A stretch of DNA of 64,000 bases from an uncultured Acidobacteriota bacterium (GCA_963793695.1 CAWCBB010000025.1:6357-70356); one strand, 5' to 3'; shown: positions 1 to 32,162, counted from the stretch's first letter. Numbers and translations: made by a program. Notes: generated from the letters alone by a model not told the origin.

Positions 1-2628
1 TCAGCTCTTACTCGTGTCTCAATCGCTTCGGCGACCTGGTCGGAGCCTTTTCGAGTCAGGACGTACGTCAGGGGCAGCTCATAGGTAAAAAGAAGTTCTT
101 TGAACTCCGCCTCATTTAAGGTGCCGGTGTTGTACTGCTCGCACGCCCCAGTGAGGTCCACCGCAGCGGCTCTGCGGGCCGTTTCCAATTCCAAATACGC
201 TAGCGTTAGAGCACGGGTCACCGCTGGGGTGTGCTTGCGTCCGACCCCCAGGAGGCCCAGAAAGATTCGACCGGATCGATTGCTGCTCTGACAGTAGTAG
301 AAGGACTCATAGGCTTCCGGTCCCGGTCCGGGAAACTGCCTAGCTCTCCGGAGATAGAGCTGATACACGTGATGATCAATATTTTCGATTGTCGCCGTAG
401 CCGCAATGATCTTCCAGGGCTTAGCGCCAATAGTACGCATCATCTCGAGAACCGCGGTTTCGTAATGCGCGTCGAACGTGCCCAACTCTTGACTAACGAG
501 ATGAAGTTCGTCCTGCACGAGAAGTGACGGTTCGAGGTTCTTGAACGGTCGCCGATGGACCACAACCCCGTCGCAGCCTGGAGGCTGGTCCCCGGCCACA
601 GAATCTGCAGCTCGGCACATCTTCTTGTTCGTTCCCGCGAAGGACGCCCCGTGCCGCTCGCAGTAAAGATCGATTCGACCAAACAAATTCGAGAAGCGGA
701 CGTTTTGGCCGAACAGTGCCAGCTTATCGATTGTCGAGATGATTACCGAAGGCAAGTAGCGGTAAATATCGTCGTCCACGATATAGATCGGAAGAGGACG
801 GCCACGCGTCTCGCACGAGCCGTTGCGGCAGAAATGCTCAATGACACGCACTTCGGCCTCGTAACGAAGCGAGACAGACTGCTCTCTGCAGAATGGGCAC
901 AAATAGACTCGTTGAAGATTCGGATCAACGCCACTTTCTTGAAGCTGACGATGGAGATTGTCGTCGATCTTGTTTGGCGTGACGCTTTTTCCAACGAAAT
1001 ATCCAAGCGAGAACGGCTTTCCGGCAATACGGCGATCAAGCCTGATTCGTTCCGCGGATGCGAGAAGGTTGGCCAGACGCTGAAGTTGTTGGAACGTCAA
1101 AAGACGCAGAGGAAAGCGAATGACCGCCGAGACGCCAAAGTCCTTCTCCCTGAGACGGTCAAAGAACAGCTGCCAGACAATTACACCGAAGAATGCCTCA
1201 CTCTTGCCTCCCCCTGCAGCAAACCAGAGAACGTCCACGACATCGTTCTCGTCTTCGCCCTCCAGCAGGTCTGGGAACTGAACCGCTGCAAGACCCGGCA
1301 ACGCAGACACGATAAAAACGATTTGAAAGAGGCGCCACGTCGCGTATCGGCTGTCCAATCGCACCATAGCTTCGTTCATGAAACGGAAGGCGTCTGCTAC
1401 CCACGGTTTTGAAGTGTCGTTAAGAAGCACAACACCTTTCTCAAAGCGATTCAGTTCTTGCTGAAAAGACAGCCGATCGCGTTCAGCTTCCTCCCGCTCA
1501 GTACCACTCAGCGAAGCGATTTTCGCTAGCCATACCGAGTCGTATTCTCTCATCGCATCGGCGATCACGCGAAGGCCAGACAAGTCGCCTCTCGCGAGAT
1601 TGGAGAAATTGACAGGATCGTCTCCGATGTCACGCGGCATGAGACGCGGAGTTGAACATTGAGGAACGGGGTCGAACGACACGCTTCGAACACCGTCAGC
1701 GACGTTTGACGTCACCGCACCATTTACTCCGACACCGTCGAGCGTTCTGTCGTAGCGGTAGCTGTTAGGCAGCTCGTCAAACAGTTGGGGAACAAACGCA
1801 TTGTCTGGAACATCGACGGCGAGAGACACGCCGTACAGATTCGCGTCGACAAAGTCCATGCTCTGCGCCGCCACGGGCTCAGACCGGTTGATCAGGTAGA
1901 CGGAAAGGCGAGAAGCATCCCCTCCCCTAAGCCTCGAAAGGCGTACGTCAACCTCGGGAGCCCAAAGGGGAGGCACTCTAGGTTCGGCGAACTGTCGCAG
2001 GGCGGCTTCGAAGTGCTCAGCGGATTGCAGGTCCGCCTCTGTGACGAACAACTGCTGCCGACCCGGGTATGCTCCACCTATATCCGGATGAGTTCTTAGT
2101 AACTCCCGCAATTCGCGGGTCGAGAGATCTTCGGATTCGACCTCTTGAAAGAAGCTCGTCTCCCGGGAGATCGAGCGTCAAGGGGAATGGCCCTTCCCTC
2201 GTCCATACGGCCGCCAGTGGAGACCTCCCAGGAGCTTCGGGGACTCCGCCTGTCTCGAGGATACTCCACGGTGTTATAGATTTCTGCTGCGTGAACGAGG
2301 GCAGTCGCCTCACGAAAAGGTACAACGATAGACGTACGCGAAGCGGCGATATCGCTGCGAGTGCACCGTTTCGAACCAGGAATTCGACCCCACATGTTGA
2401 TTGCTCGTAGGGGCTATCGTTAGGGAGCTCCTCCCGTTCTGCATCCTCCTCGTCTTCTCCGGCCCTCGATCTAGCAGGAGTAAGGAAGCCTCCAAGAATC
2501 TGATCCGAGGGACGCATGCCGGGAATTAGCAGGGAATCGTCATCCACACCTATGGCGCGGGCCGCTATTCGGTCGGCGAGAACCGCAGCGAACCCGTTGT
2601 AGGCAGCATCAGACAGCATGGTTGTCAC
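1..2628 (-). CDS. DrmA-like SF2 DExH defence helicase. The 3' part lies outside the window and there is one frame break near 2150-2180.
   Basis: Own minus-strand translation. GTG start at 2628 with GGAGG 4 nt upstream: MTTMLSDAAYNGF... After a frame break the sequence continues ...ELRELLRTHPDIGGAYPGRQQLF...ATWRLFQIVFIVSALPG. Motif I WFAAGGGKSEAF (~1226-1191), Cys-rich insert CPFC/CRNGSC (~898-814), STIDKLA, motif II LLVQDELHLVS (~524-492), motif III IIAATATIEN (~410-382). The ORF stays open to position 1, so it is missing from the ORF track. Confidence 0.8.
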
Positions 2629-4793
2629 TCGGCCTCCGCACCGATTACCTCTTCAACTATTTGTATAGTGGCGCCAGCGAGGAGTACGCGAGGATCGAAT
2701 CCCCAGCTTCTCTCAACACGTTTCAGAGTTGCCACGTCCAACCTGTCTACTTGGGCAAGTCGAAGCACCCGGGCGAGAGCACGACCGAGTATTCTGTGGG
2801 CGGAACGAAGTCTCGCGATTGACCGGTATGAATCCTTTAGGTATTCGTCCGGAAGCGTAATCCCGATCGAATGCGCGAACGAAACAAAGCGAGCCTCGCT
2901 CATTGGAACGGCCGGCTGCGGGTTCTTAGGAGCCGGAACCCATGTCCGGATAGTTGCCTGATCAGTAGGAGTGCCGTTTTCCTTCATTGAAGACGCGATC
3001 CTCTTGATAGGCATTCGGCGCGAGCCTGCTACGGCGTCAACAAGGGTCAGCCACTCTGCTCGCTTCTCTGCGAGCGGCCGTAGAGCTTCGTCATCTAACC
3101 GATCCAGTAGTTCATCTGAAAGAGCGGAGTGCTGCGACCTGACCAAAATGACCACTTCGTCGCCAGCCTTTAGCTCTGCAGCTCGCACGGTCTTCATCCA
3201 GCGACCCATAGGCCCAATAGTGTCGAATCGTGAGTTTTCGGGCACCTCCAGGTCCGTGCCGTCCGAAAGGAGGAGTCTGACCAAACCAGGAGATGGTGGC
3301 CGCAGAGCTTCGCTCGAATGTTCATTACCAGGCATCAACAGATCGACAACCACTCCGGCCGTCGTACCGGGGCCACGCAAGACTGTTTCGAGCTGCGTCA
3401 AGAAGCGGTCCGCTACTTGAGTAATGGCAGCATAAGGGTTGAACGTATTCTTGACGCGAATCCAGTCAAAGTAGGCCGCTCTGACTTCAATCGGGTCCAA
3501 TATGAGGATGGCTGAACGCACGCCGGCGTACAGGAGAACGTCAAGGCAGTCTCGACCGAAATAGCCAACGGTGACTCCCACGTCCGCCGCTTTCTCGAAC
3601 CTCGCGTATGGATGGCCTACCTGGACACCGAGCTCACTAAGTTCGGCTGCGCTTATTTCGAGACGCGTCGCCAGCGCTTCTTGCACAGCCAGCGCTGCTT
3701 GCCAATTCCTCGTGACTATATTGATGCCCGAAGTACCCCTTGCTTCTGATACCAACTCCAGGGTGTTTTCCAAGCGAGAATTTCTCGCGCTACGCGTGCT
3801 GTGCTCTTTCAGAAGTAGTACTAACGGACGGAATGCGTCCGCTGTCGCCCGATCGTTCAACTGTTCCGTCTCGACTGCAGCGGTGAACCGTTCCACTTCG
3901 CGGACGTGTTCATCGGCTACAGACTGTTGTATTGCCCACCAGGCTCCCTGCCCAATCGACCACAGTCTGCCACCCTTTTCGCGAGCCACTTCGCTTGCAT
4001 AGTCAAACTCGCGTTCGACGAGCATCCGATCCGGGTTAACTTCCCGAACGTTGCATTCGAGATCCATAACCGGCTGGGTACTCACGAACAACTCATGGCC
4101 GTATTCGCCGAGCGAAAACCATAGGAAGTCAGAAGGTGAAGAAATGAATACGAGTGTTCCCGCCCTGCCCTGGCGCGCCCTCAAAATGGCATGTACAGAA
4201 TCTCGCAAGCGCCGACTTCGCCTCCTCTGGAGATCGATGACCATCAGGTCAATCGAAGCGAAACGCGCACTAGCGGCTTCAGAGAGACCAAGAACCGACG
4301 GGGCGATCACCTGCGGACGATCAGCGTTCCTTGGCACCATCTTACCGATTACGGCTCGGTGGCCACGTCGCAGGAGTCCTTCGCGATTGATCACGTCGAG
4401 ACTCAGGAACGAGTCGCCGGGGAGATCGTAATCTTCGATCCTCTGTGTGTTGCATCGCTCCCAGTCGAACACGCACAAGCTTGTCGAAGAGCCTATGCCG
4501 CCAGAGAAGAGTTTCGTTCTCGCACGCCTTCGAGCGTCAGCTGCATATGAAGCGCGGTAGCGTTTTGACTTCAGGATGGTTTCAACGTCCGGAGAGAACG
4601 GAGCCAACCCGAACACTGCGTTGAGAGGGAGCTCAGGCAGCTCACCCGGAAACCTCAGGTGAATGTCAAAGGGAAGGAGGACTGCTTCCCGATGCACTTG
4701 CCACGGGTGCAGAACCACGAAGGGCGCATTCGTAGTGAGCGAGCGCCTCGCAAGCGGGAGGAGTGTTTCTGAGCTCCAAGCTCCCTCGGCCAA
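2625..4793 (-). CDS. 722-aa protein of unknown function, DrmE-like by position and size (inference)
   Basis: Intact 722-aa ORF in the track with a TTG start at 4793. Its stop overlaps the helicase GTG start (GTGA at 2625-2628), so the two genes are translationally coupled. By eye it has no Walker A, nuclease or methylase motif. It shares the low G+C of the helicase gene. Confidence 0.75.
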   Translation of the reverse strand: MAEGAWSSETLLPLARRSLTTNAPFVVLHPWQVHREAVLLPFDIHLRFPGELPELPLNAVFGLAPFSPDVETILKSKRYRASYAADARRRARTKLFSGGIGSSTSLCVFDWERCNTQRIEDYDLPGDSFLSLDVINREGLLRRGHRAVIGKMVPRNADRPQVIAPSVLGLSEAASARFASIDLMVIDLQRRRSRRLRDSVHAILRARQGRAGTLVFISSPSDFLWFSLGEYGHELFVSTQPVMDLECNVREVNPDRMLVEREFDYASEVAREKGGRLWSIGQGAWWAIQQSVADEHVREVERFTAAVETEQLNDRATADAFRPLVLLLKEHSTRSARNSRLENTLELVSEARGTSGINIVTRNWQAALAVQEALATRLEISAAELSELGVQVGHPYARFEKAADVGVTVGYFGRDCLDVLLYAGVRSAILILDPIEVRAAYFDWIRVKNTFNPYAAITQVADRFLTQLETVLRGPGTTAGVVVDLLMPGNEHSSEALRPPSPGLVRLLLSDGTDLEVPENSRFDTIGPMGRWMKTVRAAELKAGDEVVILVRSQHSALSDELLDRLDDEALRPLAEKRAEWLTLVDAVAGSRRMPIKRIASSMKENGTPTDQATIRTWVPAPKNPQPAVPMSEARFVSFAHSIGITLPDEYLKDSYRSIARLRSAHRILGRALARVLRLAQVDRLDVATLKRVERSWGFDPRVLLAGATIQIVEEVIGAEAE

Positions 4794-4940
4794 AACGGAC
4801 CATCTTTCCGAATTTGCTGGCCCGGAATGTTAGCACGATGGGGAGGTGAGACCCGTACACAGGACGCTACGCCCGCTCATCAAGACTTGCGAAGTATCTC
4901 TGGCAGGGCTGATGTCGCTGCCTCAGGGCTTCACGGTTAC

Positions 4941-5108
4941 TTATGCGTGGCCTCGTGGTTCAGCTTTGAAGAGTTCAAACTGCCGATCAAACTCTTCGCC
5001 TTCTAGCTCTGGGTGATCATAGTAGAACTCCATGGCTTCGACCTCTTCTCTTGAGAGGAAGTGTGCAGCCAGAGTTAAACAGAAGTCCTTCTCAGACATC
5101 TCATCCAT
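4941..5108 (-). CDS. Small acidic hypothetical protein (55 aa), below the ORF-track size cutoff
   Basis: Own translation: MDEMSEKDFCLTLAAHFLSREEVEAMEFYYDHPELEGEEFDRQFELFKAEPRGHA, stop at 4941-4943, GAGGA just upstream. It looks more protein-like than the Ser-rich N-terminal part of the overlapping plus ORF 5032-5688. It is on the same strand as the DrmE-like gene and directly upstream of it. Confidence 0.4.
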   Translation of the reverse strand: MDEMSEKDFCLTLAAHFLSREEVEAMEFYYDHPELEGEEFDRQFELFKAEPRGHA

Positions 5109-5235
5109 TTCCTCGCGTGTAAGACACAGTTTTCCCGACTGCTTATATGACTTGTTCGTAGTGGGCCTCCCTTACGTCTCAACGTCAACACCACGTCGAA
5201 AGAGATATTCAAGCGGAATTTCACAGGCGGTCAAT

Positions 5236-5688
5236 ATGTTGACTATCGTCATGCGCAAGTTTCATCGGAAGCCATACAAGAAGTGGTTCAACGTTCCTGT
5301 TGTATACAAGGCGCTGTTCGGCGCCAAGAAAATGAAGATGCAGTACGCCTTCAACATGCTGGCGCACCAGTACCAGCTTTACCAGCCGTACAACCCCAAG
5401 GCGCCGTTCCTTCTCTTCTACTCTAGGTGGGAGAATCACATTTCCTTCCGCCTAGCTACGTACGCCCAGTTCACTCTCTACAACGGGCGAAATGGCTGGC
5501 GCCTCGCCACGCCAGTTCCAATTCCCTCTCAGGCAGACATTGAATTGATGAAAGAGATGTTTGTCCCCCTTTATGAAATCCTCTCAAACCCCTATACGTA
5601 CACTGGGCCCGCGAACTGTGACTGCGCCCAGAACGCGCTCGCGATGAGCCTTCTTGCCCAGTACGTTGAGTTCCCGGAGGTTAGTTAG
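5236..5688 (+). CDS. Hypothetical soluble protein (~150 aa; the track ORF extends to 5032)
   Basis: Track ORF 5032-5688. The region from M at 5236 (MLTIVMRKFHRKPYKKWFNVPVVYKALFG...) looks like real protein, whereas the upstream 68 codons are low-complexity and overlap the minus-strand small ORF. No family recognised. Confidence 0.5.
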   Translation: MLTIVMRKFHRKPYKKWFNVPVVYKALFGAKKMKMQYAFNMLAHQYQLYQPYNPKAPFLLFYSRWENHISFRLATYAQFTLYNGRNGWRLATPVPIPSQADIELMKEMFVPLYEILSNPYTYTGPANCDCAQNALAMSLLAQYVEFPEVS

Positions 5689-5918
5689 TGTCGACAACGC
5701 AAGTCACACGGGCAGTCGGAATTGCCAGCACGCTATTCGGGTGGAAGGTCTTGTTCTTCGGCCTCCTCTTCTTCCTCTACTACACCCTCATGAGCTTCCA
5801 CCTCATCTGGGCGGTGCTCTCGGGAGCAGTTCTCTGGCTAGGAGGTAGGCAGCTTTGGGCTGAGACCCGAGAACACTATCGGGCTATCAGTAGTAGGGGT
5901 AAGGGAAGAATTCGTTAA
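5688..5918 (+). CDS. Small 2-TM membrane protein (76 aa)
   Basis: The GTG start overlaps the upstream stop by 1 nt (TAGTG). There are two hydrophobic stretches: GIASTLFGWKVLFFGLLFFLYYTLM and LIWAVLSGAVLWLGG. The C-terminal tail is basic. Confidence 0.55.
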   Translation: MSTTQVTRAVGIASTLFGWKVLFFGLLFFLYYTLMSFHLIWAVLSGAVLWLGGRQLWAETREHYRAISSRGKGRIR

Positions 5919-6685
5919 GTTCTTTGCCGGGCGTAGCGCTGAAAGACTGCGTATGCCCGCGCTGTGAAATCATCAATGCGTTTATCGATCTGGGCGATCC
6001 GAAATCGTTCTGGAAACATCAACTCAATCACTTTCAACGTGCCAATCGCGACTTCGCACGAGGTTTTTAGAGTAACCACGACTCCGGTCGTCTCTGGATG
6101 AAGAACGCCAACCGTCGTCACGATCTCTTTCTCGTCCTCTTTCTGAATCGCAGAAGATAAAAGGCCTTGCTGATTGGGATGGGCACCGAAATCGATCACG
6201 CGCTCGTACAACAGATGAAGCTTGGGCTCGTTTAGGCGATCGACGGAGCGGTGCGTCGCTCGTACGTTCGTAATCGTAAACTCCGACTTGCATTTGCCCT
6301 TGGCGGTTTCATCATCGTTGCGGTTCAGCCAGATTACGGCTCGTTCGCTCGGGTTCGGGTCTTTGGCCATATGAAGTGCGTACCACGCTTGCTCGATTGC
6401 GAGCCGCAGAACGGCGTGCGCTTCGGGCAACTGGCCGCTCATCGCCAGACGCCACGCTCCGAGAATTGACGCATAAACGCGAACAACGAGGAACCGAGGA
6501 ATCAGAAGCACGTCACGGTTGTCGTGCTCCAACGCACTCTGCACGTCGAGGAATAGCTGATTTAGATTGCGAAGCAGGTCAAAGAAATCGGGAAGGTTGA
6601 CCGCCGCGACTCTCACGTTGCGAGCAGCGTCACGAAAGAACTGCGAGAGCGGATCGGAATCCCACGGCGGCACGTCATCAGGCAT
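5915..6685 (-). CDS. Hypothetical protein (256 aa), family not recognised
   Basis: Intact ORF with ATG at 6685 preceded by GGAGG (ctggaggctcgaATG). It is predicted helical. Its stop overlaps the stop of the convergent 2-TM gene (TTAA at 5915-5918). Confidence 0.7.
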   Translation of the reverse strand: MPDDVPPWDSDPLSQFFRDAARNVRVAAVNLPDFFDLLRNLNQLFLDVQSALEHDNRDVLLIPRFLVVRVYASILGAWRLAMSGQLPEAHAVLRLAIEQAWYALHMAKDPNPSERAVIWLNRNDDETAKGKCKSEFTITNVRATHRSVDRLNEPKLHLLYERVIDFGAHPNQQGLLSSAIQKEDEKEIVTTVGVLHPETTGVVVTLKTSCEVAIGTLKVIELMFPERFRIAQIDKRIDDFTARAYAVFQRYARQRT

Positions 6686-6742
6686 TCGAGCCTCCAGCTA
6701 ACAACCAAGTATCATTGGATTGCGTTACTGTGGAGGTCGAAA

Positions 6743-7282
6743 ATGGGAATTCGGCTTGTCCCGTCACGAATCGGAATAGCCCTCGCTCTTGCCGCCCTCC
6801 CCGGTCTGGCGCACCACATACCGGATGCGAAGCTCGAAGTTGCCGTTCACCGAGTGGAGTCAGGGGTAACTCAAAAGCCCGTCCATATCCTCCGACTGAC
6901 CTGCACCGGCGATCAGTGCCGCCTCACTTCCATTACGCTGAACGACTGCATGTATCCGAATCCTCGCTCGTTCGTACCGTGGCTGGAAATCACTTCGACG
7001 GCGGAAGGCACATTGGCCGTGACACGGGAGAAAAACACCCTCATCGCGGTCGAAACTGGCTCTGACATCGGCGGCAACTTCGTCACGACCCATCGATTTA
7101 CCTATTCGCCTGCCGCTTCTCAGCACCCCATTTCCGAGGTTACTGCCTATTCCGGCGCAACCGTCAAGAACTCCGCGTTGTTGGAGCAGATGCTAGCCTT
7201 TGAATTCAAGCCGCTGGTGGGAATGACGACGATCCCTTTGCAGTGTCCTGTCCGGGTCTTCGGGGTCACGCCGCCAGAGTAA
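6743..7282 (+). CDS. Secreted/periplasmic hypothetical protein (179 aa)
   Basis: ATG at 6743 with GGAGG 7 nt upstream. The N-terminus has a signal-peptide-like segment (RIGIALALAALPGLAHH). The mature part looks beta-rich and has 4 Cys. It lies divergent from the 256-aa gene across a 57-bp gap. Confidence 0.7.
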   Translation: MGIRLVPSRIGIALALAALPGLAHHIPDAKLEVAVHRVESGVTQKPVHILRLTCTGDQCRLTSITLNDCMYPNPRSFVPWLEITSTAEGTLAVTREKNTLIAVETGSDIGGNFVTTHRFTYSPAASQHPISEVTAYSGATVKNSALLEQMLAFEFKPLVGMTTIPLQCPVRVFGVTPPE

Positions 7283-7307
7283 CGACGTGGAGCACGTTCG
7301 CCACCGT

Positions 7308-7862
7308 TCAGATTTTCGCGCCTTTTGATCTATTGCATCGTTCGCACAGAAGTTGGACGTTGCGCTCTGTACTGCTTCCACCCCGGGCGATTGGGATGAT
7401 GTGGTCGAACTCCAACGATTCATTGGACCCACATAATACGCACTTGCCAAGGTCTCTCCGCCAAACGGCGTGTCGGACGGACTCAGGTATCGCTGCACGC
7501 TCGCGAATGGCTGCTGTGGTAGCTCCTCGGCCCAGAGCGGACGATTCCCATTCCCGCGAGGCAGCCTCTTCCCGGCGCTGTTTCTGCGCTTGGATTTCTA
7601 CCGCACGTTTGACGGCAGCGATCACTTCGTTCTGGTCAGATTCTGAAGAGAGAACACTGACCGCCGTATCCCTGAAAACCCAGAACGTGGTGTTTCGAAT
7701 GCTGTATATGAGGGGAACACGCTCCACGGTCACAACGTCGGCGTGAGTGAACTCAAAGCCGTTCGGGCGAACCGGAATGGAGAACAGGTCCTCCTCAAGT
7801 TTCAGGACCCTTCCTAGAACGCGGATCTGGAGATCTCGTGTCACGGCAATCCTCTGGCTCAC
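7308..7862 (-). CDS. HNH endonuclease with an uncharacterised ~110-aa N-terminal domain
   Basis: The C-terminus is CVLCGSNESLEFDHIIPIARGGSSTERNVQLLCERCNRSKG, a classic HNH (CxxC...H...N...CxxC) motif. The N-terminal part is not recognisable. GTG start at 7862. Confidence 0.8.
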   Translation of the reverse strand: MSQRIAVTRDLQIRVLGRVLKLEEDLFSIPVRPNGFEFTHADVVTVERVPLIYSIRNTTFWVFRDTAVSVLSSESDQNEVIAAVKRAVEIQAQKQRREEAASREWESSALGRGATTAAIRERAAIPESVRHAVWRRDLGKCVLCGSNESLEFDHIIPIARGGSSTERNVQLLCERCNRSKGAKI

Positions 7863-7919
7863 GGCTGCGGCCAGTAGCGACCTTCTGGCCTCTTGGGACG
7901 CCCGACGACAGAAGAGATT

Positions 7920-7995
7920 TGGTGGCCCCTGTCCGGGTCGAACGGACGGCCTTCTCGGTGTAAGCGAGACGCTCTAACCACTGAGCTAAGGGGCC
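7920..7995 (-). tRNA. tRNA-Val (anticodon TAC), CCA encoded
   Basis: Hand-folded cloverleaf. Acceptor ggcccct/aggggcc, D stem gctc/gagc, anticodon stem tctcg/cgaga with loop cTTACac, T arm gtccg-ttcgacc-cggac, then a-cca. Length 76 nt. Confidence 0.93.
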
Positions 7996-8131
7996 CGAAG
8001 GCATTTTACGGGACCGAAATGAGTCCGTGTAGACACTTTTGTAGACACCTGCCTGAATTCGACAGCCTTTTCTATCTGGTCGTCTCCAGCAGGCACAATC
8101 ACTTCGTTTGGATCTGCCCAACCCCTGAGCT

Positions 8132-8254: not shown

Positions 8255-9284
8255 TCAGGAAACGCCGAGAACACCCTCGCCGACGCTGCCGAGCTGTTTC
8301 GCCGATGCCCGGATGCCGCTGATCATCCCGCGGTACGCGCGGCTCGCTTCCATCGCGCGATGGAGATCGCCGGGCCGGTCCTCGAGCAACACCTCGAGGA
8401 CGGCGCGCGCCTGACGGAGGTCCTTCCGCCGCTTCGCCTGCTCGCTCACGGGACGCTGCGTGGCCGTCCAGAGCTTGTGCAGTGCGAACCGGGCGGGAGA
8501 GGGAACCGCGACGAGAACCGGATCCCGGGCGAGCAACACCGCACGCTCCCTCTCCTCCATGAGATACCCGAGATTCCGCAACGGCTGTGCAGCAATCCCG
8601 AAGGGGCGAATGGGAACTGGCGTTTCCCCGCGGCCGCGGGCCGGAGTCAGAAAATCGACGCGCAAGTCCTTCCCCCGCACCGCGAACGACGTGCTCGGCT
8701 TTCCCCGGTCCATCGCCGGAACTTCGAAGAATTTCGAATCGATCTGCTGGAGCTCCGCGAGGAGATCCGCCTCAGGCGGCGGCTCGACCGCGACGGCGAC
8801 CGAACGGTGAGCGATGTCGATGTCCTGCGTCCTCAGCACGTCGTCATCGAGCCGCACGCCGAGCATCGCTCCAACCGCAGCGAGCGCATGCGTCCCGATG
8901 AAGCCCCCCCGAGCGAAAGACACCCAGGTCCGCCAGCAGCCCGATCACGGCGCCGACCGCGGGAGCCGCGCGGGTCATCCCGCCCGCGACTGCCATCGCA
9001 GCCAGCTCGCGCAGTCGCGCGTCCGTCGCGGATGCTTCCGACCTGGCGTTACGCGCTTCGTCGAGGAGCTCGAGCAGCCGCGGCGATTCGGCGCCAATGT
9101 AGATCTGCCGCTTGATACCCGCATCGAGACGCTGCAGATACCAGTAGCGCCGCCCCCGGACCTCTTTCGATACGAACGACCCGCGACTCACGCCGAGGAA
9201 TGGAGGCGACGACGCCGCGGTCACCTGGTCCAGGAGCTCGGCGTAGATCGTCTGCGTGGCCTCCGGGTAACGGACAAACGTCAT
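8255..9284 (-). pseudogene. Nucleotidyltransferase-fold protein (GSU2403/AbiEii-like by recollection), one frameshift near 8920
   Basis: Track ORFs 8844-9284 (MTFVRYPEATQTIYAELL...RGRRYWYLQRLD...GLLADLGVF) and 8255-8923 (GGFIGTHALAAVGAMLGVRLDDDVLRTQDIDIA...) join into one ~340-aa protein if one indel is repaired. The family name comes from memory, not from a search. Confidence 0.6.
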
Positions 9285-10791: not shown

Positions 10792-11002
10792 CCGGCGGGG
10801 TATGCAAGCAAACTATTTGCCATCAGAGAGTTCGGCGGCGCCATCGAAGCCGGGGCCCGTGCGCCGGGCGGCCCTGCAAACGGGCCGGCGCAGCCGGTCC
10901 CTACGCCCGCCCTCCCCCCGTGCTACCCTTTTCCGCGTCGTCCCTCACGCAAGGTCCGGGCGCCCGCAGGGCTCCCCTACGCAACGAAAGGCGCACTCCC
11001 TC

Positions 11003-11437
11003 ATGCCGTGGTGGCTCTGGATCCTCGTCGGATTTCTGCTGTTCGGCATCGAAGCGCTCTCCACCGGTCTCCACATCGCCTTTTTCGGGTTCGGCGCGAT
11101 CGTGGTCGGCGTGCTGGTCGCCTTCGGCGCCGGCGGCCCGCTCTGGCTCCAGCTCCTCCTCTTCTCCGCGATCTCGATCTTCTCGCTCGCGCTGCTCCGC
11201 AAGCCGCTGCTCCGCGCCTTGCGTCTCGACCGCGGCCCCGACGAGCTCGACACGCTCGTCGGCGAGCCCGCCGCGGCGATCGAGGCGATCGCCCCGCACG
11301 CGCGCGGCAGGGCGGAGCTCCGCGGCACGACGTGGAGCGCGCAGAACCTCTCCGATCGTCCCCTCGAGCCCGGCGCGCGCTGCGTGGTGGAGCGCGTGGA
11401 AGGTCTCACCCTCTTCATCAGACCGGAGCGGACCTGA
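11003..11437 (+). CDS. NfeD family membrane protein
   Basis: Starts MPWWLWILVGFLLFGIEALSTG. It has two or three TM helices and a C-terminal OB-like segment (GRAELRGTTWSAQN...VVERVEGLTLFIRP). It lies directly upstream of the SPFH gene, which is the classic pairing. Confidence 0.8.
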   Translation: MPWWLWILVGFLLFGIEALSTGLHIAFFGFGAIVVGVLVAFGAGGPLWLQLLLFSAISIFSLALLRKPLLRALRLDRGPDELDTLVGEPAAAIEAIAPHARGRAELRGTTWSAQNLSDRPLEPGARCVVERVEGLTLFIRPERT

Positions 11438-11462
11438 TCCGCTCGCATCGAAGGAGATCGCC

Positions 11463-12411
11463 ATGCCCGGAGCACTCTTCGTCACCGCAGCCCTCGCCGT
11501 TCTGGTCATCATCGTCCTCGCGAAGACGGCCGTCGTCGTGCCGCAGCAGAACGCCTTCGTCGTCGAGCGCCTCGGCAAGTTCACGCGGCACGCTCGGCGC
11601 CGGCTTCCACATCCTCGTCCCGTTCGTCGACGTGATCCGCTACCGCCACTCGCTCAAGGAGCAGGCGATCGACATCCCCGAGCAGGTCTGCATCACGCGC
11701 GACAACGTCCAGGTCGCGCGTCGACGGCGTGCTCTACCTGAAGGTGCTCGACCCGCGAGCGCGCCTCCTACGGCATCTCGGACTACATGTTCGCCATCAC
11801 CCAGCTCGCGCAGACGACGCTGCGCAGCGAGATCGGCAAGATCGACCTCGACCGCACCTTCGAGGAGCGCACGAACATCAACACCGCGGTCGTCACCGAG
11901 CTCGACAAGGCGTCCGAGCCGTGGGGCGTCAAGGTGCTGCGCTACGAGATCAAGAACATCACGCCGCCGCAGGACGTGCTCGCCGCGATGGAGAAGCAGA
12001 TGCGCGCCGAGCGCGAGAAGCGCGCCGTGATCCTCACTCGGAAGGGCGAGCGCGACGCCGCGATCAACACCGCCGAGGGCGAGAAGCAGCAGGTGATCAA
12101 GGCGTCGGAGGCGAAGCGGCAGCAGCAGATCAACGAGGCCGAGGGCGCAGGCGCAGGCGATCCTCGCGGTCGCCACCGCGACCGCCGAAGGCCTCCGCCA
12201 GGTCGCCGAGGCGATCCAGATGCCCGGGCGGCATGCGAGGCCGTGCAGCTGCGCGTCGCCGAGCAGTACATCGACCAGTTCGGCGAGCTCGCGAAGGACG
12301 GCCAACACGCTGATCCTGCCGGCCAACCTCGCCGACGTCGGCTCGATGATCGCCCTCGCCATGGGAGCGATCAAAGGCCCCGGCGTGGACGCGAAAGCGC
12401 GAATCCCCTAG
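11463..12411 (+). pseudogene. SPFH/band-7 (stomatin/QmcA-like) protein, at least 5 frame breaks in this sequence
   Basis: Fragments across three frames join up: MPGALFVTAALAVLVIIVLAKTAVVVPQQNAFVVERLGKF / GAGFHILVPFVDVIRYRHSLKEQAIDIPEQVCITRDNVQV / MFAITQLAQTTLRSEIGKIDLDRTFEERTNINT...KQMRAEREKRA / ...NTLILPANLADVGSMIALAMGAIKG. Confidence 0.8.
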
Positions 12412-12546
12412 CCGCGCGGGACGCTCAGGACGCCCTGGACCCCGACTCCCTGGACGCGCCTTTGACGCCCCGGGGACGCGTTTGTCACCGGAATCAACCC
12501 AAAGAGGAGGTCCATTCGGGCCGGTTACGCCACATAATTATCGGAC

Positions 12547-13287
12547 GTGCCCATGAGTCCAAAACCCAATCGTCGTCGCGCCGAGAGGATCCGTCTCTCC
12601 AAGCCGTTCGTCTGCCGGTTCGGGACGCATGGGGTCGTGCTCATCGACATCAGCAACTACGGCGCGCGCCTCGAGCATTACAACCGCTTCGATCGGGGCA
12701 CCGAGCGCGTCCTCCGCTTCCGGTGGGGCCGCGAGGAGATCGCGATGCCGGCGAGCATCGTCTCCTGCCGCGTGGAACGATTCGTCCCGGGCGACACCGG
12801 CCTGACCGTCTACCGCTCCGGCCTCCTCTTCTCGCAGCAGGAGGGCCCGGAGTTCGAGAAGGTCAAGAAGATGACCTCTGCGCACGTCGCGACCACGCTC
12901 GTCGAGCAGGTCGCCAACGCCCGCGGCTTCAAGCCGATGACCCGCGACGGCGAGATGCCGATCTTCCGGAACGGGGCGCTCACCTCGAACGACTTCGCCC
13001 TCGACGCCGAAGAGGAGGCGCACCTCCTTCCCGAAAAGGAGCTCGCGCGGCGCGCGGGGTTCATCTGCTACTCCCTCGCGCGCGCGGGGTGGACGCGCAA
13101 GTGGACGCTCGACCCGGTCCAGCCGGAGGAAGGGTTCACCGTCTCGGCGAACGAGACCTGGGAACAGGTCGAGTCCCTCTGCGAGCTCTACCGTCAAAGC
13201 GACGCGGAGGGGCGTCACTTCATCCGCGTCCTCGCCGAGGCGAGCGTCGAGGCGGAGCTCAAGCGGAGCGAGAAGACCAGCGTCTAG
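12547..13287 (+). CDS. PilZ domain protein (c-di-GMP receptor-like)
   Basis: The N-terminus has RRRAERIRL...VLIDISNYGARL, matching the PilZ RxxxR and D/NxSxxG motifs. The ORF is an intact 246 aa. Confidence 0.7.
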   Translation: MPMSPKPNRRRAERIRLSKPFVCRFGTHGVVLIDISNYGARLEHYNRFDRGTERVLRFRWGREEIAMPASIVSCRVERFVPGDTGLTVYRSGLLFSQQEGPEFEKVKKMTSAHVATTLVEQVANARGFKPMTRDGEMPIFRNGALTSNDFALDAEEEAHLLPEKELARRAGFICYSLARAGWTRKWTLDPVQPEEGFTVSANETWEQVESLCELYRQSDAEGRHFIRVLAEASVEAELKRSEKTSV

Positions 13288-13337
13288 ACGCTCTGGACTC
13301 CCTGGACACCCCAGACTCCGGTTATCATCCGCCGGCC

Positions 13338-13883
13338 ATGCGTTTTCTGCCTACCTCTCTTCCCGGCGTGATCGTCATCGAGCCCGACGTGTTCGGCGAC
13401 GAGCGCGGCTTCTTCCTCGAAACGTACCGGAGCGAAGAGTTCGCGGCCGCCGGCATCGATCTGCCGTTCGTTCAGGACAACCACTCCGGCTCGGTGCGCG
13501 GCGTGTTGCGCGGGCTGCACTATCAGGAGCCCTCGCCGCAGGGAAAGCTGATCCGCTGCATCTCCGGAGCGGTCTTCGACGTCGCGGTCGACATCCGGAA
13601 GGGCTCGCCCCACTTCGGGAAGTGGTTCGCCGCCGAGCTCTCCTCGGAGAACAAGCTGCAGATGTGGGTCCCCGCCGGATTCGCGCACGGCTTCTGCGTC
13701 ACGAGCGAGTGGGGAGAGATCGTCTACAAATGCACCGACGTCTGGCGGAAGGAGAACGATCGGGCGATCGCCTGGAACGATCCCGAGATCGGGATCGAGT
13801 GGCCGGTCGCGGAGCCTCTCCTCTCGGCGAAAGACGCGGCCGCACCGACCCTTCGCGATGCGCCGGTGCTCCCCCGCGTGTAG
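13338..13883 (+). CDS. rfbC: dTDP-4-dehydrorhamnose 3,5-epimerase
   Basis: MRFLPTSLPGVIVIEPDVFGDERGFFLETY...RGLHYQ...KLIRCISGAVFDVAVDIRKGSPHFGKW...VPAGFAHGF is the canonical RmlC cupin sequence. It is embedded in the long track ORF 11787-13883. Confidence 0.9.
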   Translation: MRFLPTSLPGVIVIEPDVFGDERGFFLETYRSEEFAAAGIDLPFVQDNHSGSVRGVLRGLHYQEPSPQGKLIRCISGAVFDVAVDIRKGSPHFGKWFAAELSSENKLQMWVPAGFAHGFCVTSEWGEIVYKCTDVWRKENDRAIAWNDPEIGIEWPVAEPLLSAKDAAAPTLRDAPVLPRV

Positions 13884-14163: not shown

Positions 14164-16346
<2,183 letters not shown>

Positions 16347-19661: not shown

Positions 19662-19707
19662 CCGTTTCTCAATTCTGATCTCGTCTATCGGTAGAGGACC
19701 TCAGACA

Positions 19708-19784
19708 TCAGGCCCCAGGCCTCAGATCTCATGTCGCCGGTCCCGGTCTGAGGCCGGAGGCCGGAGGCCTGAGGCCTGAGGCCT
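19708..19784. repeat. Hairpin-forming 7-bp tandem repeat (GGCCTGA/GGCCGGA units) between the two ALDH genes
   Basis: cctcagacatcaggccccaggcctcagatc on the left is approximately the reverse complement of ggtctgaggccggaggccggaggcctgaggcctgaggcc on the right. Confidence 0.75.
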
Positions 19785-19785
19785 T

Positions 19786-21294
19786 CTACGATAACCGCAC
19801 GTATGCCTCGAGCCCCTGCATGCCGCCTTCGCGGCCGAAGCCCGATTCCTTGTAGCCGCCGAAGGGAGAGGTGGGGTCGAACTTGTTGTAGGTGTTCGCC
19901 CAGACGACGCCGGCGCGGAGCTTCTGCGCGATCTTGAAGATCTTGCGAGCCCTTGTCGGTCCAGACGCCGGCCGAGAGGCCGTACGGCGTGTTGTTCGCC
20001 TTCTCGATCGCTTCCTCGGGCGTGCGGAACGTCATGACCGAGAGCACCGGGCCGAAGATCTCTTCCTGCGCGATGCGGTGCGACTGCGCGACGCCGGTGA
20101 AGAACGTCGGCGGGAACCAGAAGCCGCGGGCCGGGAGCGCGCAGGCGGACTGGAACAGCTCCGCTCCCTCGTCGACCCCGCTGTCGACGAGCTCGCGGAT
20201 CTTCTCGAGCTGCGCCCGCGAGTTGATCGCGCCGACGTCCGTGTTCTTGTCGAGCGGATCGCCGAGGCGCAGCGTGCCGATGCGGTCGCGGAGCTTGCGG
20301 ATGACCGGCTCGGCGACCGACTCCTGCACGAGGAGCCGCGAGCCCGCGCAGCAGACGTGCCCCTGGTTGAAGTAGATGCCGTTGACGATGCCCTCGACCG
20401 CCTGGTCGAGCGGCGCGTCCTCGAAGACGATGTTCGCCGCCTTGCCGCCGAGCTCGAGCGTCAGCCGCTTTCCGGTTCCCGCGGTCGCGCGCTGGATGCG
20501 CTTGCCGACCTCGGTCGAACCGGTGAAGGCGATCTTGTTCACGCCGGGTGGTTGACGAGCGCCGCGCCGGTCGCGCCCGCGCCCGTGATGATGTTGACGA
20601 CGCCGGGCGGCAGGTCCGCCTCCTGGAAGATCTCCGCGAGCATCATCGCCGTCAGCGGCGTCGTCTCGGCGGGCTTGAGGACGACCGTGTTGCCGCAGGC
20701 GAGCGCCGGCGCGATCTTCCACGCGGCCATGAGCAGCGGGAAGTTCCACGGGATGATCTGCCCGCAGACGCCGACGGGGCTCACCTTCCGGCGCGGGAAG
20801 GCGTACTCGAGCTTGTCGGCCCAGCCCGCGTAGTAGAAGAAGTGGGCCGCGGCGAGCGGGATGTCGACGTCGCGCGACTCCTTGATCGGCTTGCCGCCGT
20901 CCATCGTCTCGAGTGACCGCGAGCTCGCGCGACTTCTCCTGCATCGATGCGCGCGATCCGGAAGATGTACTTGCCCGCTCGGAGGGCGAGAGCTTCGACC
21001 AGACCTTCTCGTAGGCGCGGCGCGCTTCCTTCACGGCCGCGTCCACGTCCGCGGCGTCCGCTTCCGCCACTTCCGCGAGCACCTCCTCGGTCGCGGGGTT
21101 GATCGTCGGGAAGTAATTCTTCGAGTGGGGCGCGACGAACTTGCCGCCGATGAAAAGCTCGTATCGGCTGCGATCCGGACGTGGTCGACGGCTTCGCGCG
21201 AGGGGGCGTACTCCCAGCCGGCCGCCATCGGCGACGCGGGTCCGGGCTTGAGGCGCTCGAGCGCTCCTGCGGGATCGTGGATGGTCTCAGTCAT
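19786..21294 (-). pseudogene. NAD(P)-dependent aldehyde dehydrogenase, several frame breaks in this sequence
   Basis: MTETIHDPAGALERLKPGP... / [27 protein letters not shown] / [54 protein letters not shown] / FTGSTEVGKRIQ...LTLELGGKAANIVF...NQGHVCCAGSRLLV...EEIFGPVLSVMTF. The fragments lie in three frames. I place the stop at 19786-19788. Confidence 0.85.
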
Positions 21295-31300: not shown

Positions 31301-32162
31301 CGACTCGCTTCTCTCCGAGTACGGCGTCATGGGGTTCGAGTACGGCTACTCGGTCACGGACCCCTCGACGCTCGTTCTGTGGGAGGCGCAGTTCGGCGAT
31401 TTCATGAACGGCGCGCAGATCATCATCGACCAGTTCCTCTCGAGCGCCGAGGAGAAGTGGGGGCAGCACAGCGGGCTCGTCCTCCTTCTCCCGCACGGGT
31501 TCGAGGGACAGGGGCCGGAGCATTCGAGCGCACGTCTCGAGCGCTTCCTCATCCTCTGCGCCGAGGGAAACATGCAGGTCGCGAACGTGACGACGCCGGC
31601 GCAGTACTTCCACCTGCTGCGGCGCCAGATGCGGAACGACCCGCGAAAGCCGCTCGTCGTCACCACGCCGAAGTCGCTGCTGCGGCACCCCCAGGCCGTC
31701 TCGCCGGTCGAAGAGTTGACGCGCGGGCGGTTCGAGCCGGTGCTCGACGATCCCTCGTTCGCGGAGGGAGCCCGCGAGAGCGTCCGGCGGCTCGTGTTTC
31801 TCTCGGGAAAGCTCTACTACGACGTCGCCGCGGCGCGGCAGTCGCTCGCGAGCGCGGGCGGCGCGGTCGCGGTCGCCCGCCTCGAGCAGTTCTATCCCTG
31901 GCCTGGCCCGAGGATCGCCGAGGTGATCGCGCGGTATCCGAACCTCACCGAGGTCGTCTGGGCGCAGGAGGAGCCGCGCAACATGGGCGGCTGGACCTTC
32001 CTCTCGCATCGCCTCCTCGCGCTCACGAACCTTCCCGTCCGCTACATCGGACGGCCGGTCAGCGCGTCCCCGGCAAGCGGCTCCCACCTGCGCCACGAGT
32101 CGCAGCAGCACGCGATCGTGGAGGCGGTGTTGGGGCAGCAGGAAGTAGGAAGTAGGAAGTAG
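28361..32162 (+). CDS. sucA: 2-oxoglutarate dehydrogenase E1, long Kgd/OdhA type with an N-terminal E2-like acyltransferase segment; one frame break near 29845
   Basis: MSASSPYGTNIAFIEELYDKYRENPLSVSASWREFF...; E2-like part VPLRGAASKIVKNMEASLEVPTATSVRTIP...MTSTYDHRIIQGAESGAFL; E1 part ...RFSLEGAETVVPMVDHLL...GMAHRGRLNLLANI...LLLHGDAAFAGQGVV...QENRGTFSQRH-like...LLLPHGFEGQGPEHSSARLERFL. Confidence 0.9.

What the first reader, a model, noticed from the sequence alone, without database searches (positions are those of the whole stretch)
1..4793. Truncated DISARM-like defence operon (DrmE-like protein + DrmA-like helicase) at the window edge
Two low-G+C minus-strand genes are translationally coupled (GTGA overlap at 2625-2628, with GGAGG upstream of the helicase GTG). 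The downstream product has a ~460-aa N-terminal region followed by SF2 DExH motifs: AAGGGKSEAF, STIDKLA, VQDELHLVS and AATATIEN. This is the layout I associate with DISARM DrmA. The upstream 722-aa product has no recognisable catalytic motif, as described for DrmE. In class 2 DISARM the published order is drmE-drmA-drmB(DUF1998)-drmC(PLD)-methylase, so the remaining genes would lie just left of position 1. The system assignment is inference, not a search result. A Druantia type III (DruH/DruE)-like pair or an undescribed helicase system are alternatives.
Basis: partly seen in the sequence, partly recalled or inferred. Interest (0 to 1): 0.8.

Follow-up and report, generated by a model that had tools for sequence, protein, structure and literature searches.

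The report
Divergent DISARM operon start (drmE-drmA)
The two genes are the first part of a DISARM-type anti-phage defence operon from a divergent, little-described branch of that family; the rest of the operon lies beyond the window edge, and the single frame break is probably an assembly error.

Summary
The downstream gene (1-2628, minus strand) is a DrmA helicase: PADLOC DrmA E=1.8e-95, and its only PDB relative is DrmA 7S9V (E=6e-59). The 722-aa upstream product (2625-4793) is a DrmE-family protein. It passes Pfam DrmE_C, matches a canonical DrmE by profile (94.7%), and its orthologues sit directly upstream of drmA in 42 of 43 related loci.

New findings:
1. The pair belongs to a deep clade scoring far below NCBIfam's curated DISARM cut-offs. 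Its loci carry drmE-drmA-drmB-(drmC) plus an Eco57I-type N6-adenine methylase (20 of 20 fully flanked loci). None of 70 loci has the C5 methylase that defines class 2.
2. A confident AlphaFold model (pLDDT 88.8) shows the "motif-less" DrmE-like protein is an SF2-helicase-like protein without Walker A or DExH.
3. The drmA frame break (about 2110-2150) is probably an assembly indel, because the essential metG in this window is broken at least five times.

The DNA left of position 1 could not be retrieved, so drmB, drmC and the methylase are predicted, not seen. Druantia III and housekeeping-helicase readings are rejected. Interest is moderate.

The parts
2625..4793 (-). drmE-like gene. The 722-aa product has two RecA-like lobes without ATPase motifs (about residues 24-250 and 357-450), a helical insert, a disordered linker (479-496), and a DrmE_C domain made of a small beta-barrel (504-550) plus a helical HTH-like region (552-705).
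   Evidence: ORF. Pfam DrmE_C 32.2 bits, above GA 27. NCBIfam DrmE_fam E=3.4e-5, below its cut-off. 30-32% identity over about 700 aa to the proteins upstream of drmA in L001 and L004. hhalign to canonical DrmE 94.7%. AF2 model pLDDT 88.8. Foldseek top hits are all SF2 helicases. No Walker A or DExH in the 53-sequence alignment.
1..2628 (-). drmA, an SF2 DExH helicase cut by the window edge. About 876 of about 1146 codons are present. The last ~270 residues (helicase motif VI and the C-terminal region) are known only from the database protein P0002.
   Evidence: Translations. PADLOC DrmA E=1.8e-95. NCBIfam DISARM_DrmAS E=3.6e-91. PDB DrmA 7S9V E=6e-59. About 85 homologues at 44-50% identity and 1130-1190 aa. 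P0002 sequence.
2110..2150 (-). Single +1 frame break in drmA, with a CCC run at ...CTCGACCCGCGAA... It is probably an assembly indel.
   Evidence: The tblastn segments overlap at 2086-2135. Sequence context. The same break exists in the public record, because P0002 starts downstream of it. At least five frame switches occur in essential metG of the same window.
2625..2628 (-). GTGA start/stop overlap of drmE and drmA, with GGAGG at 2634-2638, consistent with translational coupling.
   Evidence: Sequence. The same 4-nt overlap is seen in several related loci.
1..7919 (.). Low-G+C island (0.53-0.58 against 0.64-0.73) that carries the operon and abuts the 3' end of tRNA-Val. Its left end is beyond the window.
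   Evidence: Composition profile. tRNA scan.
7920..7995 (-). tRNA-Val(TAC), at the right-hand boundary of the island and a probable integration site.
   Evidence: ARAGORN. The G+C step lies at about 7900-8000.
7308..7862 (-). HNH endonuclease gene inside the island. No relation to the DISARM operon is established, and it is not a conserved neighbour in relatives.
   Evidence: Pfam HNH E=1.6e-13. PADLOC REase_II E=5.9e-9. Neighbour census.

Best explanation
Positions 1-4793 hold the promoter-proximal part of a DISARM-type defence operon carried on a low-G+C island next to tRNA-Val. The part comprises drmE followed by a translationally coupled drmA.

Shown here:
- DrmA is a DExH helicase of the DISARM branch with intact ATPase motifs and the two cysteine/histidine clusters inserted in RecA1.
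- Its polypeptide ends without a fused DUF1998 module.
- DrmE is a two-lobed SF2-helicase-like protein that has lost Walker A and DExH and carries the DrmE_C domain.

Inferred from 70 related loci:
- drmB follows immediately, then usually a PLD nuclease (drmC).
- An Eco57I-type N6-adenine methyltransferase is expected to the left of the window.

Inferred from published DISARM work:
- The methylase marks host DNA.
- A DrmA-DrmB complex loads on single-stranded 5' ends of incoming unmethylated DNA and translocates using ATP.
- Methylation damps that activity.
- DrmE is an essential non-catalytic partner. I propose it is a helicase-derived DNA-binding or regulatory subunit that fills the place taken by the active SNF2 helicase DrmD in class 1.

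The frame break in drmA is most likely a sequencing or assembly indel, not decay.
For: DrmA assignment:
- PADLOC DrmA E=1.8e-95, with only DrmA models hit.
- NCBIfam hits only DISARM_DrmAS and DrmAL.
- The only PDB relative is DrmA 7S9V/7S9W, E=6e-59.
- Walker A, DExH, motif III, motif VI and eight Cys/His positions are invariant in alignment A3. This matches the 'two ZBMs embedded in RecA1' described for DISARM (PMC12458937).
- P0002 shows the protein ends at about 1146 aa like its relatives, with no DUF1998.

DrmE assignment:
- Pfam DrmE_C is above its gathering score.
- 48 of 53 family members match NCBIfam DrmE_fam, and the only other family matched is the related DISARM_DrmE (11 members).
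- hhalign to a canonical class 2 DrmE: 94.7%, E=6e-8, over 321 columns.
- AF2 model pLDDT 88.8, pTM 0.80.
- The 39 Foldseek matches at E<=1e-3 are helicases or helicase-containing complexes; the named ones (RIG-I, HrpB, MDA5, FANCM, DHX9/36, HamB, Hel308, RecQ5) are all SF2.
- No GK[ST] after beta-1, and [N/D]-L-Q at the motif II site.

Operon context in relatives:
- DrmB after DrmA in 51 of 54 loci, DrmC in 33 of 43, DrmE before DrmA in 42 of 43.
- DrmB, DrmC and MTase identities from PADLOC and NCBIfam.
- An adenine methylase in 20 of 20 fully flanked loci.

Island.

Frame break as artefact: metG is recovered in six pieces across three frames, and further broken core genes are seen.

Mechanism: PMC9142583 (DrmAB, trigger loop, 5' overhang, methylation-sensitive ATPase) and 10.1101/2021.12.28.474362 (drmA, drmB and drmE are each required in class 2; drmC is dispensable).
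Against: - The DNA left of position 1 was not obtainable, so drmB, drmC and a methylase are not shown for this contig.
- A profile search for DrmB relatives returned none from the 81,110-bp contig. That search was visibly incomplete, because it also missed L004's own DrmB.
- The window's DrmA is a solitary deep branch, at most about 52% identical to any full-length relative. Its architecture therefore cannot be assigned to the methylase-downstream or methylase-upstream subtype.
- All scores are far below NCBIfam's curated cut-offs: DrmAS 307 bits against 950, and DrmE_fam 22 bits against 80.
- The window's own DrmE gets no PADLOC DrmE hit.
- The frame break might be a real inactivating mutation. 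Break density is much lower in the island (1 in about 4.8 kb) than in metG (at least 5 in 2 kb).
- The role proposed for DrmE is inference from fold and gene position only.
Confidence: 0.85

Rival explanations
1. It is a decaying, non-functional remnant of a DISARM operon. The drmA frameshift is a real inactivating mutation, and the downstream genes may be lost or degraded.
For: The frame break is in the public assembly as well as the window, since P0002 begins after it. No DrmB from this contig was recovered. No methylase, DrmB or DrmC piece lies anywhere in the 64-kb window. Split drm genes are frequent in related metagenome loci.
Against: There is only one break. Both halves keep full-length collinear homology with no extra stops, and all catalytic motifs are intact. 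The same window has at least five frame switches in essential metG and several in other core genes, which points to assembly indels. drmE is intact and models with high confidence along its whole length.
Confidence: 0.15
2. It is a Druantia type III (DruH/DruE) pair or another YprA-family system (ARMADA, BRIGADE, TALON or Dpd) rather than DISARM.
For: These systems share a related helicase family with DISARM (PMC12458937), and the upstream protein is large and poorly annotated, as DruH is.
Against: No DruE, DruH, Dpd or other model is hit at E<=1; only DrmA models are. The helicase ends without a fused DUF1998 or nuclease. In relatives the DUF1998-type protein is a separate gene, which PMC12458937 gives as the hallmark of the DISARM branch. 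The upstream protein matches DrmE_C and DrmE_fam.
Confidence: 0.02
3. It is a housekeeping Lhr/Hrp/MrfA-type repair helicase with an unrelated upstream gene.
For: Generic DEAD/Helicase_C Pfam hits.
Against: No Lhr, Hrp or MrfA model or structure is matched by sequence. The genes sit in a low-G+C island at a tRNA. Relatives conserve linkage to DrmB, a PLD nuclease and a DNA methylase, and often to integrases, pAgo or ArdC-like genes.
Confidence: 0.01

Closest known systems
Class 2 DISARM (Bacillus paralicheniformis type: drmE-drmA-drmB-drmC-drmMII). L006 from Shimazuella soli served as the near-canonical comparator.
   Same: The gene order drmE then drmA is the same. DrmA is of the 'short' type: the best NCBIfam model is DISARM_DrmAS, and there is no long class 1 N-terminus. 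DrmB is a separate gene in relatives, and a PLD DrmC is usual. DrmE shares the second RecA-like lobe and the DrmE_C domain with canonical DrmE.
   Different: In the clade the methylase is an Eco57I/N6_Mtase-type adenine enzyme of 480-720 aa. It lies downstream of drmB/C or upstream of drmE, and is never a C5 enzyme. Sequences are very distant. DrmA is 27% identical to L006 and scores 307-390 bits against a cut-off of 950. DrmB scores 63-66 against 240, DrmE 22-53 against 80, and DrmC 53-58 against 133. The N-terminal lobe of DrmE is not alignable to canonical DrmE.
Class 1 DISARM (Serratia sp. SCBI: drmD, drmMI, drmA, drmB, drmC; structures 7S9V/7S9W)
   Same: It has the same DrmA helicase core (E=6e-59 over residues 428-1018) and uses adenine methylation chemistry. 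A helicase-fold accessory protein is encoded upstream of drmA.
   Different: There is no SNF2 DrmD and no PglX-like DrmMI of about 1300 aa; relatives' methylases hit DrmMI only at E=1e-5 to 1e-7. The accessory protein is a catalytically degenerate SF2-like protein, not an active SNF2 helicase. DrmA lacks the long class 1 N-terminus.
Other YprA-family defence systems (Druantia III DruE, ARMADA, Dpd DpdJ)
   Same: They have a distantly related SF2 helicase core and a defence-island context.
   Different: Those helicases carry a fused OB-CON-DUF1998 module, and often nuclease and BrxA-like domains (PMC12458937). Here the helicase ends without them, and no such model is matched.

Membership tests
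DISARM (broad sense) | DrmA: an SF2 helicase homologous to DISARM DrmA | tested here: met
   PADLOC DrmA E=1.8e-95. NCBIfam hits only DrmAS and DrmAL. The only PDB hit is DrmA 7S9V, E=6e-59.
DISARM (broad sense) | [quoted passage not shown] | tested here: met
   P0002 gives the DrmA C-terminus. The protein ends at about 1146 aa, collinear with relatives and without a Cys4 DUF1998 module. In relatives DrmB is a separate gene.
DISARM (broad sense) | DrmB (a DUF1998 protein) is encoded next to drmA | not testable with these tools
   The position lies left of the window and the contig could not be fetched. DrmB is present in 51 of 54 related loci. The search for this contig's own DrmB was inconclusive.
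DISARM (broad sense) | DrmC (a PLD nuclease) is in the operon | not testable with these tools
   Off-window. Present in 33 of 43 related loci, and reported as dispensable for defence (10.1101/2021.12.28.474362).
DISARM (broad sense) | A DNA methyltransferase is in the operon | tested here: inconclusive
   No methylase-like piece exists in the 64-kb window, so none lies upstream of drmE. The left flank is unknown. 20 of 20 fully flanked relatives have an adjacent N6-adenine methylase.
DISARM class 2 (strict sense; PADLOC type II needs DrmA, B, C, E and MII) | DrmE is present | tested here: met
   Pfam DrmE_C 32.2 bits, above 27. hhalign 94.7% to canonical DrmE. Synteny.
DISARM class 2 (strict sense; PADLOC type II needs DrmA, B, C, E and MII) | DrmMII, a C5-cytosine methylase (pfam00145) | tested here: not met
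   Tested on the clade, not on this contig. phmmer with a class 2 dcm found no C5 methylase among all ORFs of 70 related loci. Their methylases are Eco57I/N6_Mtase type. I therefore do not file it as class 2 in the strict sense.
NCBIfam equivalogs DISARM_DrmAS and DISARM_DrmE | Score at or above the curated cut-off | tested here: not met
   DrmAS scores 306.7 bits for the truncated protein, and 390 for full-length relatives, against a cut-off of 950. DrmE_fam scores 22.3 against 80. DISARM_DrmE scores 9.5 against 250.
DISARM class 1 | A DrmD SNF2 helicase and a DrmMI methylase, with drmE absent | tested here: not met
   The upstream protein is DrmE-like, with no SNF2 match. PADLOC prohibits drmE in type I (PMC9252829). 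Relatives' methylases hit DrmMI only marginally.
Druantia type III | A DruE helicase with fused DUF1998, plus DruH | tested here: not met
   No DruE or DruH model is hit at E<=1, and the helicase has no fused DUF1998.

The most novel reading that the evidence does not exclude
The clade is a third architectural class of DISARM. It keeps DrmE and DrmABC, but self-marking is done by a compact Eco57I-type m6A methylase that can sit at either end of the operon. DrmE is a helicase-derived pseudo-enzyme that docks on or gates the DrmAB motor, as the inactive counterpart of class 1 DrmD. If so, every DISARM class pairs the DrmAB motor with a second helicase-fold protein, and the unknown role of DrmE becomes testable by structure-guided mutagenesis.
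Probability: 0.45. Interest if true: 0.55.

Novelty: new variant of a known kind. Interest (0 to 1): 0.42.

Why it matters
DISARM is an established defence system, so the basic identification is ordinary. Three things make it worth recording.

1. A sizeable soil-metagenome clade escapes curated annotation. It has about 85 DrmA clusters and about 150 DrmE representatives. It does not fit either published class, because it combines DrmE with adenine methylation.
2. It offers a concrete, testable idea about DrmE. DrmE is essential in class 2 but has no known function. The model says it is a degenerate SF2 helicase with a conserved C-terminal domain.
3. It is a practical warning. This contig is full of frame breaks, so apparent pseudogenes in it, including drmA, should not be read as biology.

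Tried and rejected
- **Exact look-ups.** I looked up the window's DrmE (722 aa), P0001 and P0002 to fetch the 81-kb source contig. No gene positions were on record.
- **GTDB representative genomes.** A scan with P0002 did not find the source genome. It returned only two distant loci, and L006 became the class 2 comparator.
- **JGI metagenomes.** An exact 52-mer from the window's left edge gave no match.
- **Finding this contig's own DrmB, DrmC or methylase by contig length.** I used a concatenated DrmB+DrmC+MTase profile search. It returned only 49 DrmB-type hits, none from the 81,110-bp contig, and it missed known members. The result is inconclusive.
- **First homology search with DrmE.** It found only DrmE itself. 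The family became visible only with the exhaustive search.
- **Structure prediction with locus-derived homologues.** It was redone with hits from the exhaustive search.
- **Fold search of the isolated DrmE_C region.** There was no significant match. The best E-value was 0.047, a local resemblance to a Hint/intein-like barrel, so the fold is left unassigned.
- **P0190, a 1794-aa protein with a C-terminal DrmE region.** Its N-terminal 1045 residues matched none of my Drm or methylase profiles, so it was uninformative.
- **Promoter and terminator scan of 4500-8100.** Nothing exceeded chance.
- **Rejected readings.** Druantia III, Dpd/ARMADA and a housekeeping helicase were considered and rejected.
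- **Homopolymer explanation of the frame breaks.** It is only partly supported. Some junctions lie at GGGG or CCC runs and others do not.


Full report
**1.

A 722-aa ORF occupies 2625..4793 on the minus strand. Its TGA stop overlaps the GTG of the next gene, giving GTGA at 2625-2628, and GGAGG lies 4 nt upstream. An ATG 9 nt further downstream is an alternative start.

The downstream gene reads in one frame from 2628 to about 2130. It then continues in the +1 frame, which is open from 2177 to the window edge. tblastn with three intact homologues gives two collinear segments, window 2616..2086 and 2135..6. There is therefore one break at about 2110-2150 and no other stop.

They coincide with invariant columns of a 26-sequence alignment: G472-K475, D706-E707-x-H709 and T744-A745-T746.

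G+C is 0.53-0.58 up to about 8000 and 0.64-0.73 beyond. tRNA-Val(TAC) lies at 7920-7995 on the minus strand, with its 3' end facing the low-G+C segment. The operon therefore sits on an island whose right border is that tRNA. Its left border is outside the window.

**2. The helicase is DrmA**

- The repaired 876-aa fragment hits six PADLOC DrmA models (best E=1.8e-95) and nothing else at E<=1.
- In NCBIfam it hits only DISARM_DrmAS (E=3.6e-91, 307 bits) and DISARM_DrmAL.
- Among 177,635 PDB sequences it hits only DrmA of the Serratia DrmAB complex, 7S9V/7S9W (E=6e-59, residues 428-1018).
- No Druantia, Dpd, Lhr or Hrp model appears in any of these searches.
- A database protein, P0002 (884 aa, 100% identical), starts just after the frame break and supplies the ~270 C-terminal residues missing from the window.
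- With that C-terminus the repaired protein is about 1146 aa, like its roughly 85 relatives of 1130-1190 aa at 44-50% identity.
- It ends without a DUF1998 module. Bell et al. (PMC12458937) give a separately encoded OB-CON-DUF1998 protein as the hallmark of the DISARM branch.
- Eight invariant Cys/His positions inside RecA1 (C577, C580, H598, C600, C605; C656, H659, C671, C685) fit the two zinc-binding inserts that paper describes for DISARM helicases.

**3. The 722-aa protein is a DrmE-family member**

- It passes Pfam's gathering score for DrmE_C (32.2 bits against 27, residues 505-678).
- It weakly matches NCBIfam DrmE_fam (E=3.4e-5).
- It has no PADLOC DrmE hit and no PDB sequence relative.
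- It is 30-32% identical over about 700 residues to the proteins directly upstream of drmA in related loci.
- An exhaustive search found about 150 representatives at E<=1e-3, of which 90 are at E<=1e-30.
- Of 53 aligned members, 48 match DrmE_fam. The only other family matched is the related DISARM_DrmE, by 11 members.
- Against a canonical class 2 DrmE (L006, Shimazuella soli: DrmE_fam 223 bits), BLASTP sees only the last ~150 residues.
- The 53-sequence profile aligns 321 columns with that canonical DrmE at 94.7% probability and E=6e-8. Window residues 342-685 align with canonical residues 429-768.

**4. What DrmE looks like**

An AlphaFold2 model built on the 53-sequence alignment is confident (mean pLDDT 88.8, pTM 0.80). 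All 39 Foldseek matches in the PDB at E<=1e-3 are helicases or helicase-containing complexes. The named ones are all SF2: RIG-I, HrpB, MDA5/LGP2, FANCM, Dicer, DHX9/36, Hachiman HamB, Hel308 and RecQ5.

Global TM-scores are low (0.2-0.3), as expected for multi-domain proteins. I therefore claim only the two-lobed RecA-like core.

The family has no Walker A. The loop after beta-1 carries a conserved Trp instead of GK[ST]. The motif II position reads [N/D]-L-Q. DrmE is thus best described as a catalytically degenerate helicase-like protein.

Its C-terminal region, modelled alone (pLDDT 89.6), is a five-stranded small barrel followed by helices with an HTH-like element. It has no significant structural match; the best E-value is 0.047.

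None of the eight papers in the held library that mention DrmE assigns it a fold. The original DISARM paper was not available to read.

**5. What surrounds such genes elsewhere**

The source contig could not be fetched, so I used relatives instead. These were seven loci from exact look-ups and 77 from a metagenome scan. I surveyed them with HMMs built from characterised members.

| Feature, among 70 distinct loci | Loci with it / loci with enough flank |
|---|---|
| DrmB directly after DrmA | 51/54 |
| DrmC (PLD nuclease) | 33/43 |
| DrmE before DrmA | 42/43 |

- Component identities were checked with PADLOC and NCBIfam: DrmB E=1e-26 to 1e-27, and DrmC E=7e-16.
- Every one of the 20 loci with long flanks on both sides has an Eco57I/N6_Mtase-type adenine methylase next to the operon.
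- That methylase lies either downstream of drmB/C or upstream of drmE.
- No C5 methylase occurs in any locus.
- No other neighbour recurs in more than four loci.
- Occasional neighbours are integrases, an IS element, pAgo, an ArdC-like protein and a family-B polymerase.

**6. How this relates to the published classes**

By the published definitions, class 1 is DrmD plus the N6A methylase DrmMI, and class 2 is the C5 methylase DrmMII with or without DrmE (10.1101/2021.12.28.474362). PADLOC type II requires DrmMII, and type I forbids drmE (PMC9252829). This clade fits neither class.

All its components score far below NCBIfam's curated cut-offs. In a neighbour-joining tree the clade is separated from a class 2 DrmA by a long branch. 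The window's DrmA is a solitary basal lineage within the clade, at most about 52% identical to any full-length relative.

Bell et al. note 'many uncharacterized DISARM-like classes', so the existence of such variants is acknowledged in general.

**7. The window itself beyond the two genes**

No methylase-, DrmB- or DrmC-like piece exists anywhere in the 64 kb. Any remaining components must therefore lie to the left. The methylase-upstream arrangement is excluded for this locus.

The other island ORFs have no informative matches, except an HNH endonuclease at 7308-7862.

**8. The frame break**

Several core genes in the high-G+C part of the window match only fragments of their Pfam families. 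Three-frame translations show why.

- Against the PDB, MetRS is recovered in six collinear pieces that alternate between frames 3, 2, 3, 1, 3 and 2 over 14350-16337.
- An aldehyde dehydrogenase at 19685-21082 switches frame at least three times.
- An essential gene broken at least five times indicates assembly indels rather than decay.
- The drmA break sits at a CCC run in similar sequence context, and both halves of the gene are otherwise intact.
- I therefore regard the break as probably artefactual. It remains unproven. Break density is lower in the island, at 1 in about 4.8 kb.

**9. Mechanism**

Shown: a DrmA helicase with intact motifs, a helicase-like but motif-less DrmE, translational coupling, and an island location.

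Inferred from relatives: a DrmB partner, a usual PLD nuclease, and an m6A methylase.

Inferred from the literature:
- DrmAB binds single-stranded 5' ends of incoming DNA after displacement of an autoinhibitory loop, and its ATPase is damped by methylation (PMC9142583).
- drmA, drmB and drmE are each required in class 2, whereas drmC is dispensable (10.1101/2021.12.28.474362).

My own inference, held at moderate to low confidence: DrmE is a helicase-derived DNA-binding or regulatory subunit, analogous in position to class 1 DrmD.

**10. Verdict**

The alternatives it listed are rejected.

The finding is a truncated view of a divergent DISARM variant, not a new kind of system. Its interest lies in three points: the clade's unclassified architecture, the fold assignment for DrmE, and the warning about assembly quality. 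Interest is moderate (0.42), well below the 0.8 originally given.

Noticed in passing
window 14350-16337 (+), 19685-21082 (-), 11000-13883 (+), 28361-32155 (+): Core genes in the high-G+C part carry pervasive frame breaks. metG is recovered in six pieces across all three frames. An aldehyde dehydrogenase switches frame at least three times. Band_7 and RmlC domains share one ORF. A Kgd-like ORF of 1264 aa has only its N-terminal domains in frame. This points to an indel-rich assembly.
   Followed up: partly
window 7308-7862 (-): An HNH endonuclease gene (Pfam HNH E=1.6e-13) lies inside the low-G+C island directly beside tRNA-Val. It is not a conserved neighbour of the operon in relatives.
   Followed up: partly
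window 8255-8923 (-) and 8844-9284 (-): An NTP_transf_8 nucleotidyltransferase (E=7.8e-50) has an overlapping upstream 146-aa ORF without matches, just beyond the tRNA in high-G+C DNA. It may be a two-gene module.
   Followed up: no
window 4941-5108 (-), 5032-5688 (+), 5915-6685 (-), 6743-7282 (+): Island ORFs between drmE and the HNH gene have no Pfam or PADLOC match. The 55-aa acidic ORF lies on the operon strand about 150 nt upstream of drmE.
   Followed up: partly
L023 14043-16022 (+) and the homologous ORF L060 16633-18609 (+): The L023 ORF carries a Piwi domain (prokaryotic Argonaute type, E=5e-13) and lies a short distance downstream of the DISARM-like operon. L060 has a BLAST-homologous ORF in the same position that was not itself scanned. 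This suggests composite defence islands.
   Followed up: no
L044 13507-16005 (-); L012 10300-11355 (-); L016 19136-20191 (-); L032 1860-2828 (+): Mobile-element-type genes lie beside related operons: a family-B DNA polymerase, an ArdC-like anti-restriction domain protein, a tyrosine integrase, and an IS transposase directly upstream of drmE in L032. L032 is a locus without a detected methylase.
   Followed up: no
L010, L015, L022, L058, L064, L068, L069, L072, L078 (coordinates): drmB or drmA is split into two ORFs in many related metagenome contigs. Split DISARM genes are therefore common in such data, whether through sequencing error or real inactivation.
   Followed up: no
P0190 (1794 aa; DrmE-like region 1046-1792): One database protein fuses a full DrmE-like region to an N-terminal 1045 residues. 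That part looks helical and low-complexity by eye and matches none of the Drm or methylase profiles. It may be a real fusion or a gene-calling artefact.
   Followed up: partly
L006 7374-9122 (+): The near-canonical class 2 locus of Shimazuella soli has an extra 582-aa gene between drmE and drmA. It has only faint matches, to the MAD6 kinase and PriA. No PLD drmC was identified after drmB in that locus.
   Followed up: no
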